Shown here one piece after another: positions 21,997 to 25,825 of a DNA stretch of 64,000 nucleotides. Every line of letters starts with the position of its first letter. Position 1 is the first letter of the stretch. The notes beneath the pieces were generated by a model. It made no database searches. It was not told the DNA's origin and saw nothing but the letters and a program-made list of their open reading frames with translations. The DNA comes from Opitutales bacterium (GTDB taxonomy: Bacteria > Verrucomicrobiota > Verrucomicrobiia > Opitutales > PNEW01), in NCBI GenBank assembly GCA_965197745.1, contig CBDANS010000006.1, positions 1-64,000 on the forward strand, read 5' to 3'. The position numbers and the translations under genes are program-made.

Positions 21997-23412
21997 ATGA
22001 TAGAGGGGAGAAGACAAGGGTTATTAACGCTTCATTGGCTATTTATCGCGATCGTTTTACCCGTTTGGTTTCTTATCGCGGTCTACATAGGCGTAGAATA
22101 CGTACATAAAATCAAATACGAACAGATAAATTTTCCCATTTACCTCGCGGGCATCGCGTTTGCCAGTTTACAGATTCTCAGTAACTACAGTCGTGCTGAT
22201 TCACGTCGGACTCCCGGATATCTATGGGTAGAAGCAATACGCAAGACTAATTCCAATGCCATCGTCCTGGCGCTGGCGTTCTTTGCGATCGTTTACGCAA
22301 CCAAGGACAAATCGATGAGCCGCCTTTTTCTAGGTTCATTCATATTGAGCACATGGTTTATTCTATTACCCCTCAACCGGTATTTACCGATCTGGTTAAC
22401 ACGGTTACTCTATCGCGGAGATAATGCGGTAAAAACCGTGCTCGTAGGAAACCCCGGCGCAATAAAGTATCTGGATGAATGGATAACCGAAGAACCACCA
22501 CTGGGAATGCAGATATTGGGAATAATTACCCCTCCCGAGAAGGATGAAGTTAAGGCACAAATTCCTCACCTTGGGACCATAAATGAATTCGAGCGAATCC
22601 TCGTAGAAAATAAAGTACAACAGGTAATATTGCTGGAAACACTGCAATCCAGAGAATTTATAACTTCAGTCATCGATACCGCTCAGCACGAAGGATGCCG
22701 GATACTGATCGTAAATGACTGGGAAGATTATTTTAAAATTCCAGTCACCACCGTAAATGAGGGCCAGTACTCCTTCTATACACTGCAGGAAGAACCTCTG
22801 GAAAACCCCATTAACCGTTTCCTCAAACGTTTTTTAGACATAGCAGTATCATTACCGATTGTCCTGACAATACTCCCCATACTGTGTGTAATTATTAAAT
22901 GCATACAAATTAAACAATCACCCGGACCTCTTATATTTCGTCAAAAAAGATCGGGTGTTTATAAAAAAGCATTCTATCTCTATAAATTTCGAACCATGCA
23001 TTTCACAGAGAAGAACACAACAGATGAAAGTCATCAAGCAACGGTAAATGACGAGCGGGTCTATCCTTTAGGTAAATTTTTGCGGAAGAATAGTATTGAT
23101 GAGTTTGCCCAGTTCCTGAACGTCCTATTGGGTGAAATGAGCCTGGTCGGACCAAGGCCTCATTATTTAAAGCATGATGAAGAGTTCAGAAAAGAGGTTA
23201 ACATTTACCAAATTCGCCATCTCGTAAAACCCGGCATTACCGGATTGGCTCAAAGTCGAGGTTTTCGCGGTGAAATAACGGACGTCTCACAAATCCACGG
23301 CCGCGTCCGCTCAGACCTCGAATACATAAACAGTTGGACTATATGGATGGACATTCTAATAATTTTAAAAACAATCTACCAGGTAATGTTTCCACCACGC
23401 AGTGTGGAGTGA
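21997..23412 (+). CDS. wcaJ: Undecaprenyl-phosphate sugar-1-phosphate transferase (WcaJ/WbaP-type initiating enzyme)
   Basis: Four N-terminal TM helices, KRFLDI, YKFRTM, SIDEFAQFLNVLLGEMSLVGPRP, VKPGITGLAQ; last codons and stop come from the IS3 left end. Confidence 0.9.
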   Translation: MIEGRRQGLLTLHWLFIAIVLPVWFLIAVYIGVEYVHKIKYEQINFPIYLAGIAFASLQILSNYSRADSRRTPGYLWVEAIRKTNSNAIVLALAFFAIVYATKDKSMSRLFLGSFILSTWFILLPLNRYLPIWLTRLLYRGDNAVKTVLVGNPGAIKYLDEWITEEPPLGMQILGIITPPEKDEVKAQIPHLGTINEFERILVENKVQQVILLETLQSREFITSVIDTAQHEGCRILIVNDWEDYFKIPVTTVNEGQYSFYTLQEEPLENPINRFLKRFLDIAVSLPIVLTILPILCVIIKCIQIKQSPGPLIFRQKRSGVYKKAFYLYKFRTMHFTEKNTTDESHQATVNDERVYPLGKFLRKNSIDEFAQFLNVLLGEMSLVGPRPHYLKHDEEFRKEVNIYQIRHLVKPGITGLAQSRGFRGEITDVSQIHGRVRSDLEYINSWTIWMDILIILKTIYQVMFPPRSVE

Positions 23413-23469
23413 CCCCCAAAAATGGTATCATTAACAGAGAGAGGTTATCGGGATAAACAGATAACCTCA

Positions 23470-23736
23470 ATGAAAAGAAAAAGATATACAACAGAACAGA
23501 TCATAGCAATACTGCGGCAGCCCGATACGGGCAAAACCGTGCAGGAAGTCTGCCACGGCAACAACCTAAGTGAACAGACCTTCTATCGCTGGGGCAAAAA
23601 GTATGGCAACTTGGAGCTGGCTGATGCGAAGCGATTTAAAGAGCTGGAAAAGGAGAATACGGAGCTGAAGAAGATGCTCGCTGATCAAATGCTCAAGCTT
23701 CGGGTGTTGGAGGAAACGCTCTCAAAAAAATGGTGA
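23470..23736 (+). CDS. IS3 OrfA (HTH transposase subunit)
   Basis: MKRKRYTTEQIIAIL...SEQTFYRW.KKYG...KELEKENTELKKMLAD. Confidence 0.85.
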   Translation: MKRKRYTTEQIIAILRQPDTGKTVQEVCHGNNLSEQTFYRWGKKYGNLELADAKRFKELEKENTELKKMLADQMLKLRVLEETLSKKW

Positions 23737-24164
23737 GCCCAAAGCAGAAGAAGCGAGCAGTAAAAGATGCGGCTGAGAAGGGGCTGTGCTCGTTTTAGAG
23801 GGCTTGTGCTTATCTCAGCCTCAGTTGGTCAACGTACAGCTACCGACCCAAGCAGGCCAGTAAGAAGGCTCAGCAATTGGCCGAGCGGATTTTGACCTTG
23901 TCCTGGGAACATCCCCGTTACGGTTACCGGCGCATTCGTGCCTTGCTGGTGAAAGAAGGTTGGGCGGCAAGCAGGAAATTTGTACAGGCAGTGCGACGTT
24001 CTTCGGGCTTACAGGTAAAGCCCCCGAAAAAGCGTAGACACCGTCAGGGGATCTCTACTGGGCTCCCTACTAAAGCAACCGGTCGCAATCACGTCTGGTC
24101 CTGGGACTTTGTCCATGATCGTACAGACAATGGCGGTATGCTAAAGATGATGACCTTGATCGAT

Positions 24165-24209
24165 GTACCGAGGAGCTGAAAGCGACGACACTCAAGCGAA
24201 GCGAAGACA
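24165..24209 (+). repeat. Short inserted element copy 1 (net +42 bp), contains GCGAAGC
   Basis: GTACCGAGGAGCTGAAAGCGACGACACTCAAGCGAAGCGAAGACA interrupts the expected LID(E)YTR motif. Confidence 0.75.
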
Positions 24210-24335
24210 TATACGCGTAAATGTTTACGCATCCGGGTAGCTCGACAGCTCACCTCAACCGATGTTCTCTCGGTACTCAGCGAAACCATCGATGAAGAGG
24301 GAGTTCCTAGCTATATCCGCAGTGACAACGGCAGT

Positions 24336-24369
24336 GTTCCGAGGAGCGAAGCGACGACATGCGAAGCCA
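24336..24369 (+). repeat. Short inserted element copy 2 (net +31 bp), contains GCGAAGC twice
   Basis: GTTCCGAGGAGCGAAGCGACGACATGCGAAGCCA interrupts the expected SDNGS(E)FIA motif. Confidence 0.75.
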
Positions 24370-24775
24370 TTCATTGCTCATCAGGTGCAGCAGTGGTTGT
24401 CCGACAAAAAGATCAAGGCGATATATATCGATCCGGGCAGTCCCTGGCAAAACGGTTTCATCGAGTCGTTTCACAACCGCTTACGCGATGAGTGTTTGAA
24501 CCGTGAAGTGTTGCTCAGCGTGGCTGAAGCGCAAGTGCTAATAGAACAATGGCGTCAGACCTATAACAATGAACATCCCCACAGTCGATTAGGCTTTAAA
24601 AGCCCACAAGAGTTTGTCACATTCCTTTCCGCTCTTGGCCGCGTTCGGGCTACGCCCTCACTGCGCCAAGATCTCTCATATACATCAATCCTAAAACCAT
24701 TAACACCCGGTAGTTCTCTCACTTAAAATTTGATACGAAATACGGGGTCCGATCACTGGGATTAATCGTTACCTG

Positions 24776-25825
24776 TTGCGATTAACATGCCATTGGACCT
24801 GCGCCTTCATTCTTGGAATGGCGGTTATTATAACGGCACCTCTTGCTCTCTCGGGACAAGATGACCGCCCTCTCTCAGACCTGGCATTAGCCGAAGCAAC
24901 TATTGATTTTCAAGGCATCACCTATGCGCTTATTGAGGGTGACGTTTACAGCATTGATATTGATAATAACATGCTTGTTTTCACTGTAAATATTCACGAA
25001 AAAGGCTATTATGAGAATAATTACGTGGTCATTGATCAAACGGTTAACAGATGGGTCGCGCTATTAGGTATGTTTATTCCAGTAAAACGCCATCTTCAAG
25101 ACAACTTCGAGAACGCAAATATCATCCATAATCTTATTGGGTTTGATCGGGGATAGACAGATGTTGTCTTGCAATCTCCTTCTGCGCCGACAAGACCAGA
25201 GTATAAAAATCTTCGGAATAGTATCTTACTCGGGCAGTCTGATTTTATTGACAACCGGGTCGAACCCAGTTCGGCGGTCGTCTACTCAGGTTCTCGAGCA
25301 TTACGCACCCATGCTGTTGCCAAGACTGCAAACATGGTAGTTTCCAAAGCGTTTCTTGCTTCTGAAATGCTTCACTATGTAAAAGGAGATGATGTTTGGT
25401 TTTCAGCCAGGTATTATGCTGATCCTGAAGAAGGTGCGCCACAATCGATCATGGATTTAGAGACTTCCTGGTATATAGAACGACCGGGCTTAAGACTTGT
25501 GATTACCGATAACGGGCATTTACAAGTCGAATTGAAATGGATCATAAAAGCGAAATACCGACAACTGGGCGGGCAACAAGTGATGTTTCCAAGAGGACAG
25601 TGGGTACATATCCAAACACACTATTACCTCTCAGATGAAAACGACGGGGTCATTGAGGTTTGGCAAGACGGGATAAAGATCATAGATGAGCAAGGACAGA
25701 CCTTGCCCCTGGCGAGTACCGTATACAGTTACCTGGAGTTAGGTATAACTGCACACAGATCTGAGTCGGAAAATGTGACGGTGTATGTGGATGATTGTGT
25801 GATCTCTGATCAGCCGATTAATTAA
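24776..25825 (+). pseudogene. Secreted polysaccharide-lyase-like / beta-sandwich protein split by one in-frame TAG (25154-25156)
   Basis: ORFs 24776-25156 and 25169-25825 share a frame; N-terminal signal peptide; C-terminal PRGQWVHI...GVIEVWQDG...VYVDD resembles the heparin-lyase-I-like Polysacc_lyase fold. Confidence 0.6.

What the first reader, a model, noticed from the sequence alone, without database searches (positions are those of the whole stretch)
24165..24369. Two related GCGAAGC mini-hairpin insertions hit the same inferred TGAAT target inside the IS3 transposase
Seen: orfB is broken twice, 171 bp apart, by GTACCGAGGAGCTGAAAGCGACGACACTCAAGCGAAGCGAAGACA (+42 bp, in-frame TGA) and GTTCCGAGGAGCGAAGCGACGACATGCGAAGCCA (+31 bp, frameshift). 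They share GT.CCGAGGAGC.GAA.GCGACGACA...GCGAAGC...CA. Each occupies the place of the Glu codon expected in the IS3 motifs LID-E-YTR and DNGS-E-FIA, so both original sites were probably T-GAA-T. Known: d(GCGAAGC) forms an unusually stable DNA mini-hairpin. Inference: a family of very small, sequence-specific, non-autonomous insertion elements of variable length without obvious target duplication, or footprints of an editing or repair activity that inactivates mobile DNA. No cognate enzyme is visible in this window.
Basis: partly seen in the sequence, partly recalled or inferred. Interest (0 to 1): 0.78.

Follow-up and report, generated by a model that had tools for sequence, protein, structure and literature searches.

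The report
Tiny hairpin modules break IS3 transposases
Two short structured DNA snippets (43 and 32 bases) that interrupt a jumping gene's transposase belong to a large, apparently undescribed family of miniature insertion modules found across one order of bacteria, and the enzyme that moves them is unknown.

Summary
In the window's IS3-family element (23405-24755), a 43-nt segment (24166-24208) and a 32-nt segment (24337-24368) each sit inside a conserved Glu codon of orfB (LID-E-YTR, DNGS-E-F). Relatives in the same genome have empty sites there. 62 IS3 homologue loci from other taxa lack the motif. The inserts are derived, they break the frame, and they are not assembly artefacts.

They belong to a much larger family: 5'-[G/C]|T(A/T)CC-GAG-[variable stem-loop]-CGA-CA...-3'. 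The own genome holds 253 copies, against 16 for a reversed control. The long version occurs in 49 of 401 Opitutales genomes. Modules sit in four or five transposase codons, in T and D loops of pseudo-tRNA fragments, in MITE arms and between genes. They always lie at [G/C]^AA, without target duplication, usually with one A lost.

Insert-bearing IS copies transposed recently. A sister IS family keeps three intact, insert-free copies. RNA-library contigs retain the inserts. Translational hopping does not fit.

Best reading: REP-like, non-autonomous DNA modules that inactivate transposases and ride on IS amplification. The mobilising enzyme is not identified; an HUH-type single-strand mechanism is only a guess.

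The parts
23405..24755 (+). IS3-family insertion sequence (1351 bp, ends TG...CA) that carries the two inserts
   Evidence: Pfam on the four reading-frame pieces gives HTH_Tnp_1, HTH_21, rve, rve_3. 37 copies longer than 1000 bp in the own genome. Ends defined by where copies with different flanks stop being alike.
23470..23736 (+). orfA (88 aa, HTH_Tnp_1), with the A7 run at 23724-23730 where IS3 elements usually shift frame by -1
   Evidence: The frameshift itself is inferred from what is known of the IS3 family, not tested.
23796..23798 (+). in-frame TAG in orfB (SF*RAC), a third defect of this copy
   Evidence: The 89.5%-identical subfamily has TTG CGA here; several diverged copies share the TAG.
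23802..24164 (+). orfB segment before insert 1 (HTH_21, start of the catalytic core, ends ...MMTLID)
24166..24208 (+). insert S1, 43 nt: TACC-GAGGAGC-TGAAA-GCGACGA-CA-CTCAA-GCGAAGC-GAAGAC; replaces the middle A of Glu GAA (LID-E-YTR); in-frame TGA
   Evidence: Empty in 7 of 37 copies, filled in 30.
24210..24335 (+). orfB segment between the inserts (rve core, ends ...IRSDNGS)
24337..24368 (+). insert S2, 32 nt: TTCC-GAGGAGC-GAA-GCGACGA-CA-T-GCGAAGC-C; replaces the middle A of Glu GAA (DNGS-E-F); shifts the frame by +1
   Evidence: Empty in 3 of 37 copies, filled in 34. Also present at the homologous codon of a second IS3 family.
24370..24726 (+). orfB last segment (rve_3, contains the catalytic Glu region ...NGFIESFHNRLRDE...)
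24448..24449 (+). site S4 (SPW-Q-NG, TGGC^AAAAC), empty in this copy
   Evidence: Filled in 8 other IS3-type copies of the own genome (7 of the window's family, 1 more distant) and in G002 by TACCGAGCGAAGCGACA-CCTCAAC-GAGC..GCGAG-AATAAC.
24490..24492 (+). site S3 (RLRD-E-CLN, GATG-AG-TGT), empty in this copy
   Evidence: Filled in 9 of 37 copies by a 36-nt module with the compensatory stem GAAC/GTGA. A contig of run X17 carries 37 letters between 24490 and 24493 (table 5c).

Best explanation
The two segments are DNA-level insertions of a miniature, non-autonomous, structured repeat module. The module resembles REP/BIME elements in size and build. It has a conserved 5' head T(A/T)CC, then a hairpin whose base is GAG opposite CGA (one G-C pair plus a tandem G.A/A.G), then a variable inner stem-loop, then CA, then optional further small hairpins such as GCGAAGC.

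Shown: modules enter DNA between a G or C and an AA, in one orientation, without target duplication and without terminal inverted repeats. In most site classes one A is lost. In the IS3 transposase they destroy the reading frame. The window's copy is therefore a dead transposase gene with two inserts plus a TAG.

Shown: insert-bearing IS copies nevertheless transposed recently.

Inferred: a transposase supplied in trans moved them, and the high copy number of S1 and S2 comes from IS amplification and recombination between IS copies, not from repeated module insertion.

Guess: the modules are moved as single-stranded DNA by an HUH/Y1-type or similar enzyme that recognises the hairpin and the head. 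No such enzyme has been tied to them.
For: **Insertion is the derived state.**
- Natural empty sites exist for S1 (7 of 37 copies), S2 (3 of 37) and S3 (28 of 37).
- 62 IS3 homologue loci from other taxa lack the motif.
- There is an isogenic pair in the sister IS family C. Two empty and four filled copies are identical over the compared IS columns (about 177-1400 of the alignment, roughly 1200 nt) except at S2: TCCG-AG-TTT against TCCG-[32 nt]-A-TTC. A third empty copy differs additionally at alignment columns 426-428.

**A family, not chance.**
- Long core: 123 hits in the own genome, of which 119 lie in IS3-like loci, 3 in tRNA-linked repeats and 1 is probably chance.
- General module T[AT]CCGAG-N5-18-CGAC[AG]: 253 hits against 16 for the reversed control; 125 lie outside IS3 loci.
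- The long core occurs in 49 of 401 Opitutales genomes and 28 of 133 genera. The reversed control gives 1 hit in all 401.

**Same junction rule in independent contexts.**
- S1 to S4 in IS3.
- Sense T loops of pseudo-tRNA-Asn/Gln fragments, TTCG-A-ATCC.
- Antisense T loops of tRNA-Leu-linked fragments in several genera, CTTG-A-ACCC.
- A pseudo-tRNA-Ser D loop, GGCCG-A-ATGCG.
- The arm of a MITE in G040, GGGGTC-A-AACC.
- The 'GTCATTGCGAGG...GGC^AATCCAGG' repeats of the own genome.
- Use of the antisense T loop argues for recognition of DNA sequence, not of tRNA structure.

**Structure.**
- In 24 distinct long cores, the pair at alignment columns 11-20 is G-C in 17, A-T in 6, G-T in 1 and unpaired in 0. 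100% of cells are paired, and 0 of 500 shuffles reach that.
- Short modules show many different complementary inner stems: GGC/GCC, GAC/GTC, AGC/GCT, TCCCGC/GCGGGA.

**The carriers are mobile.**
- 14 copies are at least 98.4% identical to the window's.
- 10 copies checked all have different flanks; 3 of them show 4-bp direct repeats.

**A trans source is plausible.** Family C keeps 3 insert-free copies with open OrfA and OrfB, in one of them fused in frame into a 415-aa ORF.

**Inserts are younger or more mobile than their hosts.** Subfamilies A and B differ at 127 of 1107 coding positions, 80 of them at third codon positions, but at 0 of about 72 insert positions.
Against: - No enzyme is linked to the modules. 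Y1_Tnp (PF01797) is found in 42 of 49 motif-positive genomes and in 142 of 352 motif-negative ones (my hand tally). One family has Y1_Tnp in 32 of 34 genomes and the motif in 0 of 34. Seven motif-positive genomes show no Y1_Tnp.
- None of 14 Y1_Tnp loci examined is flanked by a module. The own genome's only Y1-like gene is frameshifted and has other terminal repeats. The long Y1 genes of G040 have their own ends.
- In G040, 32 copies lie forward and 32 reverse. There is no overall strand bias, although position relative to replication was not determined.
- Nearest-neighbour folding gives no significant stability (z between -1.0 and +1.6). Those parameters do not model tandem G.A pairs or GNA mini-loops well.
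- The loss of one A is not universal. G035 tRNA-linked units and some 'AATCCAGG' repeats keep both As. At S3 and at family-C S2 the empty alleles read GAG, so the exact boundary is uncertain by 1-2 nt.
- The only isogenic empty/filled pair also differs at a flanking base (TTT against TTC). That fits copying from another filled IS better than a fresh insertion.
- No fresh insertion or excision was observed.
Confidence: 0.5

Rival explanations
1. There is no dedicated transposase. A few old capture events of abundant hairpin DNA (template switching or break repair) created S1 to S4. Since then the inserts spread only by short-patch gene conversion between the more than 100 IS3 copies and by IS transposition. 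The modules are structural repeats, not currently mobile elements.
For: - S1 and S2 are letter-identical in IS subfamilies whose coding sequence differs by 11.5%.
- Each site carries its own fixed variant (loop, spacer, tail) in G000, G001 and G002.
- The isogenic family-C pair shows a changed flanking base next to the insert.
- IS copies are mosaics: all combinations of S1/S2/S3 states except all-empty occur; divergence is 4.8% after S2 and 14-21% before it; the TAG is shared by otherwise diverged copies.
- No enzyme was found.
Against: The same head, the same orientation and the same [G/C]^AA junction recur in at least ten unrelated contexts and in 28 of 133 genera. Modules are nested inside other repeats in many different combinations. 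Random capture would not give such constant ends.
Confidence: 0.25
2. The modules are copies of a small structured RNA, inserted by target-primed reverse transcription (SINE-like). The small loss of target bases would be a by-product of offset nicks.
For: There is no target duplication, 0-1 nt of target is lost, the 3' part is conserved and structured, and the modules are linked with tRNA-derived fragments. Small target deletions are known for some non-LTR elements (recalled, not from a call).
Against: The 5' end is as sharply conserved as the 3' end, so there is no 5' truncation series. No reverse transcriptase was examined or linked. GCGAAGC and GNA loops are features best known for DNA hairpins (recalled). 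The use of either strand of T loops follows DNA sequence.
Confidence: 0.1
3. The inserts do not kill the gene. They are removed from the mRNA (mini-intron) or skipped by the ribosome (programmed hop, as in phage T4 gene 60), so these IS copies are autonomous.
For: - All 37 copies of the window's IS family carry at least one insert, yet 14 near-identical copies show recent transposition.
- The inserts are more conserved than the coding sequence around them.
- S1 has AGC-TGA followed downstream by an in-frame AGC (read by hand).
Against: - Removing a whole insert leaves the frame one base short.
- S3 has no matching take-off and landing codons, and S2 has no stop after its only match (worked by hand).
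- The same modules sit in intergenic repeats, MITE arms and on the antisense strand of pseudo-tRNA fragments, where splicing or hopping has no meaning.
- This copy also has a TAG.
- Contigs of an RNA library bridge both inserts without a gap (records 9 and 10), though contigs cannot exclude a rare spliced form.
- Variation within the insert-bearing groups is 14 synonymous to 14 non-synonymous codon variants, less constrained than between groups (65 to 39).
Confidence: 0.04
4. The inserts are marks left by a host system that targets and disables mobile DNA.
For: 119 of 123 long-core copies in the own genome lie in transposase genes. Other hits lie in a MITE arm and in a Y1 transposase gene of G040. 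IS3 genes of another family in the order are hit too (G241).
Against: The excess in IS is explained by IS amplification of three or four events. 125 of 253 general modules lie outside IS3 loci. Many genomes carry only 1-3 copies next to tRNA genes or between genes. 66 top-strand and 34 bottom-strand [G/C]AA sites in this IS are untouched.
Confidence: 0.05

Closest known systems
REP / BIME / REPIN elements with their RAYT (TnpA-REP) transposases
   Same: Units of 20-40 nt. A conserved 5' head followed by an imperfect palindrome with a variable loop. Tens to hundreds of copies. Mosaic arrays of different units. No terminal inverted repeats. In PMC2817692 I read Table 1 and parts of the Background and Discussion through term searches: REPs such as GTAGGAGCGC...GCGCGAC with GTAG/GTGG heads, and rayt genes flanked by their REPs.
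   Different: The head is T(A/T)CC and the stem base is a GAG/CGA tandem-GA motif. Units are found inside coding sequences with exact empty sites. No Y1 gene flanked by the modules was found (0 of 14 loci). The group is Verrucomicrobiota, whereas that paper proposes that RAYTs and REPs originated after gammaproteobacteria branched and found no homologues in other major lineages.
IS200/IS605-family transposons and their miniature derivatives (PATEs)
   Same: No inverted repeats, no target duplication, subterminal hairpins at both ends, insertion in one orientation next to a short target, and single-strand chemistry that would suit GNA mini-hairpins. The family properties are recalled, not taken from a call.
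   Different: Known elements insert without losing target bases, need a 4-5-nt target and are several times longer. Here the target is about 3 nt, one A is usually lost, and no partner element with the same ends is seen.
RUP of Streptococcus pneumoniae and other MITEs that land in IS elements
   Same: A small non-autonomous repeat that interrupts insertion sequences and so may limit them. RUP is named as an IS630-derived MITE in PMC2817692; its preference for IS elements is recalled.
   Different: RUP is 107 bp with inverted repeats and a TA duplication, and is moved by a DDE transposase. The present modules have neither inverted repeats nor a duplication.
Rickettsia palindromic elements (RPE)
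   Same: Small palindromic repeats inserted inside protein-coding genes (recalled).
   Different: RPEs are 100-150 bp, are inserted in frame and are translated. S1 carries a stop, and S2 and S3 shift the frame.
tRNA-linked repeats (E. coli rtT type, Rfam RF00391)
   Same: Short repeats downstream of tRNA genes that end in a copy of the tRNA 3' segment. One unit gives a weak RtT match: 23.7 bits against a gathering score of 45, E 0.25.
   Different: Below threshold. Every unit examined here carries a module in its T loop.

Membership tests
IS3 family (the host element) | OrfA with HTH_Tnp_1 and OrfB with a DDE integrase core (rve) | tested here: met
   HTH_Tnp_1 1.2e-19; HTH_21 2.2e-11; rve_3 3.8e-26; rve weak on the 42-aa middle piece.
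IS3 family (the host element) | Ends 5'-TG...CA-3', short imperfect terminal repeats, 3-4-bp target duplication | tested here: met
   ends TGGAGTGACCCC.../...GGGGTCCGATCA. A 4-bp duplication is seen at 3 of 10 copies checked. The window copy itself shows none.
IS3 family (the host element) | Programmed -1 frameshift between orfA and orfB | not testable with these tools
   An A7 run at 23724-23730 lies at the orfA/orfB overlap. The shift itself was not shown.
REP/REPIN-RAYT | Short imperfect palindrome with a conserved head, in high copy number | tested here: met
   253 against 16 control; one covarying pair in the long core; many complementary inner stems in short modules.
REP/REPIN-RAYT | A cognate Y1 (RAYT) gene flanked by the repeats | tested here: not met
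   0 of 14 Y1_Tnp loci are flanked by a module. 7 of 49 motif-positive genomes have no Y1_Tnp hit.
REP/REPIN-RAYT | Extragenic location | tested here: not met
   128 of 253 modules lie inside IS3-type genes.
IS200/IS605-derived miniature elements | No inverted repeats, no target duplication, fixed orientation next to a short target | tested here: met
IS200/IS605-derived miniature elements | Seamless insertion 3' of a 4-5-nt target; an autonomous partner with the same ends | tested here: not met
   One A is lost in most site classes. Only [G/C]AA is shared. No partner was found.
MITE of a DDE transposon | Terminal inverted repeats and a target-site duplication | tested here: not met
   The ends differ (TWCCGAG... 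against ...GCGAAGC-N-C). There is no duplication at any of the sites.
Self-splicing or enzyme-spliced intron | Removal restores the reading frame; the spliced RNA exists | tested here: not met
   Removing the whole insert leaves the frame one base short. Contigs of an RNA library keep both inserts. No Rfam family matches at E up to 5. Raw reads were not available.
Programmed translational bypass (T4 gene 60 type) | Matching take-off and landing codons that restore the downstream frame, at every insert | tested here: not met
   Read by hand: S1 has a match (AGC-TGA...AGC), S2 has only GCG...GCG without a stop, S3 has none.

The most novel reading that the evidence does not exclude
The modules are the smallest known class of site-directed mobile DNA in bacteria, as short as about 21-32 nt. 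They would be moved by a so far unrecognised enzyme that inserts a folded single strand between [G/C] and AA while expelling one adenine. That chemistry fits no described transposase family. They would also act as natural killers of IS3 transposases across a whole bacterial order.
Probability: 0.25. Interest if true: 0.85.

Novelty: new variant of a known kind. Interest (0 to 1): 0.62.

Why it matters
- **Exact before-and-after sites.** How REP-like repeats spread is still not settled. REPs lie between genes, where empty sites are hard to prove. Here conserved transposase codons and tRNA loops give the junctions to the base: [G/C]^AA, no duplication, usually one A lost.
- **An unusual junction.** This signature points to a mechanism, and perhaps an enzyme, that has not been described. 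It gives a concrete oligonucleotide substrate to test.
- **Second-order parasites.** In this genome 37 of 37 copies of one IS family are broken by the modules, yet the copies multiplied. This is a natural case for studying mobilisation in trans and the decay of IS bursts.
- **A practical point.** Gene callers will split such transposases into fragments. Knowing the modules lets annotators recognise them.

Tried and rejected
- **Splicing.** One call laid four runs (three RNA or probable RNA, one of unknown kind). All were contigs, not raw reads. No joint removes an insert. Records 9 and 10 of X17 bridge S1 and S2 without a gap. A rare spliced form cannot be excluded.
- **Translational hop.** Codon matching by hand fails at S3.
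- **Known RNA families.** Rfam gave nothing at E up to 5 over 23300-24900. On three other loci it gave only tRNAs, a sub-threshold RtT match and one chance-level hit.
- **Thermodynamic folding of inserts.** Not better than shuffles.
- **Target lies in a hairpin loop?** Folding of seven natural empty sites shows no common structure.
- **Integrase next to the tRNA-linked units?** Ten neighbouring ORFs are housekeeping genes or have no match; no recombinase.
- **Y1/RAYT link.** The co-occurrence is confounded and there is no physical link.
- **Strand bias in G040.** 32 forward against 32 reverse; the replichores are unknown.
- **Post-insertion selection.** 14 synonymous against 14 non-synonymous variants within the two young groups; too few to decide.
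- **Viral contigs.** 18 matches. 16 look like chance hits in GC-rich coding sequence. 2 related contigs carry a true module with the GTTCC head and a CCGG hairpin.
- **Literature.** Exact-sequence terms gave 0 papers. The searches 'GCGAAGC/transposase/hairpin/repeat', 'REPIN/RAYT/insertion site/target', 'Verrucomicrobia/Opitutales/palindromic/repetitive element/insertion sequence' and 'tRNA-linked repeat/RtT/tyrT' found no description of these modules. Only listings were seen, except passages of PMC2817692 and of bioRxiv 10.1101/2024.07.17.603846.

Full report
**1. What is in the window**

Positions 23405-24755 hold an IS3-family insertion sequence.
- orfA (23470-23736) matches HTH_Tnp_1. The orfB pieces match HTH_21, rve and rve_3.
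- The ends read TG...CA.
- The shared core of the two segments occurs twice in the window and in none of 100 shuffles.

**2. Exact anatomy of the two breaks**

The own genome (7 contigs, 4.45 Mb) holds 37 copies of this IS longer than 1 kb. Some diverged copies have natural empty sites.
- Site S1: ATCGATG-A-ATATACG (7 of 37 copies) against ATCGATG-[43 nt]-ATATACG (30 of 37).
- Site S2: GGCAGTG-A-ATTCATT or ...G-A-GTTC (3 of 37) against GGCAGTG-[32 nt]-ATTCATT (34 of 37).
- Each insert therefore begins with T, ends with C, and stands where the middle A of a Glu codon stood. The net gains are +42 with a TGA and +31 with a frameshift.
- A third site S3 (RLRD-E-CLN) is filled in 9 of 37 copies and empty in 28, the window's among them.
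- A fourth site S4 (SPW-Q-NG) is filled in 8 IS3-type copies of the own genome (7 of this family, 1 more distant) and in G002, and is empty in the window.
- Every one of the 37 copies carries at least one insert.
- 62 IS3 homologue loci from other taxa carry no such segment. The inserts are therefore the derived state.

**3. The carriers moved after being hit**

- 14 copies, counting the window's, are at least 98.4% identical to it over about 1350 bp and carry S1, S2 and the TAG.
- Ten copies found by exact end anchors all have different flanks. Three of them show 4-bp direct repeats.
- A second subfamily of 9 copies, about 89.5% identical to the window's, carries the same two inserts without the TAG.
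- A sister IS3 family C has 45-53% protein identity and dozens of copies. It has the same 32-nt S2 at the homologous codon.
- In family C, two empty and four filled copies are identical over the compared IS columns (roughly 1200 nt) except at the site: TCCG-AG-TTT-ATT against TCCG-[32 nt]-A-TTC-ATT. A third empty copy differs additionally at alignment columns 426-428.
- The three insert-free copies have open OrfA and OrfB; in one they are fused in frame into a 415-aa ORF. For family C an autonomous source exists. For the window's family none is present in this assembly.

**4. The inserts belong to a large family of modules**

- A relaxed search for the long core finds 123 places in the own genome. 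119 lie in IS3-like loci, 3 in repeats downstream of tRNA-Asn and tRNA-Gln, and 1 is probably chance.
- The general form T[AT]CCGAG-N5-18-CGAC[AG] occurs 253 times, against 16 for the reversed pattern. 125 of these lie outside IS3 loci.
- These short modules have many different complementary inner stems around GNA-type loops. The base before the T is C or G in 113 of 137.
- They are often nested in other repeats, for example in 'GTCATTGCGAGG...GGC^AATCCAGG' units. Those units exist with and without the module.
- In 24 distinct long cores from five genomes, one stem pair covaries: G-C 17, A-T 6, G-T 1, unpaired 0. No shuffle of 500 reaches the observed pairing.
- Standard folding energies are not significant.

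**5. Distribution**

- Record titles of relatives place the genome in Opitutales, Verrucomicrobiota.
- The long core is present in 5 of 41 sampled relatives and in 49 of 401 genomes of the order, that is 28 of 133 genera. The reversed control gives one hit in all 401.
- Most genomes have 1-10 copies. G000, G002 and G040 have 64-117.
- The contexts elsewhere follow one rule:
  - G040: the arm of a MITE, GGGGTC-A-AACCTTGCA, becomes GGGGTC-[module...AATAAC]-AACCTTGCA.
  - Several genera: the antisense T loop of tRNA-Leu-linked fragments, CTTG-A-ACCC.
  - G126: the D loop of a pseudo-tRNA-Ser fragment, GGCCG-A-ATGCG.
  - G241: two sites in yet another IS3.
- The 3' part varies by class: GCGAAGC, or CCTCAAC-GAGC..GCGAG-AATAAC, or a CCGG hairpin.
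- The loss of one A is not universal. G035 units read TTCG-[module]-AATCC. Some 'AATCCAGG' repeats keep both As. At S3 and at family-C S2 the empty alleles read GAG. The boundary is therefore uncertain by one or two bases.

**6. Are the inserts removed at the RNA or protein level?**

- Removing a whole insert leaves the frame one base short.
- Matching take-off and landing codons exist only at S1.
- Contigs from an RNA library bridge S1 and S2 without a gap, and no run shows a joint that removes an insert. Only contigs were available, so a rare form cannot be excluded.
- Rfam has no match.
- The same modules lie between genes and on antisense strands.
- I read the inserts as inactivating.

**7. 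How the pattern arose**

- Subfamilies A and B differ at 127 of 1107 coding positions. 80 of these are third codon positions, the mark of divergence as working genes. They differ at 0 of about 72 insert positions.
- Divergence drops from 14-21% before S2 to 4.8% after it.
- The copies are mosaics of S1/S2/S3 states, and diverged copies share the TAG.
- This fits inserts that are younger than the IS lineages and were passed between copies by recombination, then multiplied by transposition.
- Variation within the two young groups is 14 synonymous to 14 non-synonymous, too little to decide whether they evolve as pseudogenes.

**8. The enzyme**

- The features recall single-strand (HUH) transposons and REP elements. 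They are: no inverted repeats, no duplication, fixed orientation, a short target, and hairpins with features of very stable DNA mini-hairpins. The stability of d(GCGAAGC) is recalled, not from a call.
- I could not tie a gene to the modules.
- Y1_Tnp occurs in 42 of 49 motif-positive and 142 of 352 motif-negative genomes (hand tally). Small genomes lack both. One family has Y1_Tnp in 32 of 34 genomes and no motif.
- None of 14 Y1 loci is flanked by a module.
- No recombinase lies by the tRNA-linked units.
- The mechanism is therefore open. The HUH idea is a guess.

**9. Comparison with what is known, and verdict**

- The closest kinds are REP/BIME/REPIN repeats, miniature IS200/IS605 derivatives, RUP-type MITEs that land in IS elements, and Rickettsia palindromic elements.
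- The modules fail a defining test of each of the first three: no flanking RAYT, no seamless 4-5-nt target, and no inverted repeats or duplication. Unlike Rickettsia elements (a comparison from memory), they are not inserted in frame.
- Five literature searches found no description of them.
- I file them as a new variant of the small palindromic repeat kind, with a real chance of a new insertion chemistry.
The main interpretation is largely right, apart from the weight given to GCGAAGC and to target specificity.

Noticed in passing
window 21997-23412 and 23405: The IS sits at the very 3' end of a 471-aa ORF whose sequence looks like a bacterial sugar transferase (not checked against Pfam). The last codons and the stop of that ORF come from the first bases of the IS, so the native C terminus was replaced.
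   Followed up: no
window 23796-23798: An in-frame TAG in orfB is shared by the 14 near-identical copies and by several copies only 79-88% identical. Others read CGA, CGG or TGG at the same codon. A shared nonsense codon in diverged copies suggests recombination between copies, or tolerated read-through.
   Followed up: partly
G000:C6:355390-355730 (L001) and G000:C5:236400-236620 (L002): tRNA-Asn and tRNA-Gln are followed by one or two partial copies of their own T arm and 3' end. In these copies the T loop holds a 13-14-nt hairpin-forming insertion (ATGAGAAYC...) plus a module. There is a weak RtT (RF00391) match at 23.7 bits. Similar units follow tRNA-Ser, tRNA-Arg and tRNA-Leu genes in other genera.
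   Followed up: partly
G000:C6:652913-654270 (L167) and about 200 other places: A region of about 1.2 kb encoding the C-terminal part of a large secreted-looking protein is repeated roughly 200 times at 65-81% identity in the genome. The intergenic DNA after these genes is crowded with short modules in both orientations.
   Followed up: no
G000:C6:162800-163800: The genome's only Y1_Tnp-like gene is split by a frameshift (199 aa plus 175 aa). It is bounded by the inverted repeat GGGTCAGACTGCGAA / TTCGCAGTCTGACCC, unrelated to the modules.
   Followed up: partly
G000:C7:1901333-1902478: One insert-free family-C IS copy has orfA and orfB fused in frame into a 415-aa ORF by a small change at the frameshift region. 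This would give constitutive transposase.
   Followed up: no
own genome, e.g. C6:355760-355800, C6:1476150: Tandem heptamers of the type AATCGAC / AATCGGC / AATCCGC are common next to modules and seem to be another preferred landing place (...AATCG^...).
   Followed up: no
L170 and L177 (two IMG/VR contigs): Two related viral contigs carry a complete module with the GTTCC head and a CCGG hairpin. The other 16 viral matches look like chance hits in GC-rich genes.
   Followed up: no
G040 (L141, L143): Two of four long Y1_Tnp genes examined carry an insertion of about 130 nt near their 3' end. It ends in a reverse-oriented short module and changes the protein's C terminus.
   Followed up: no
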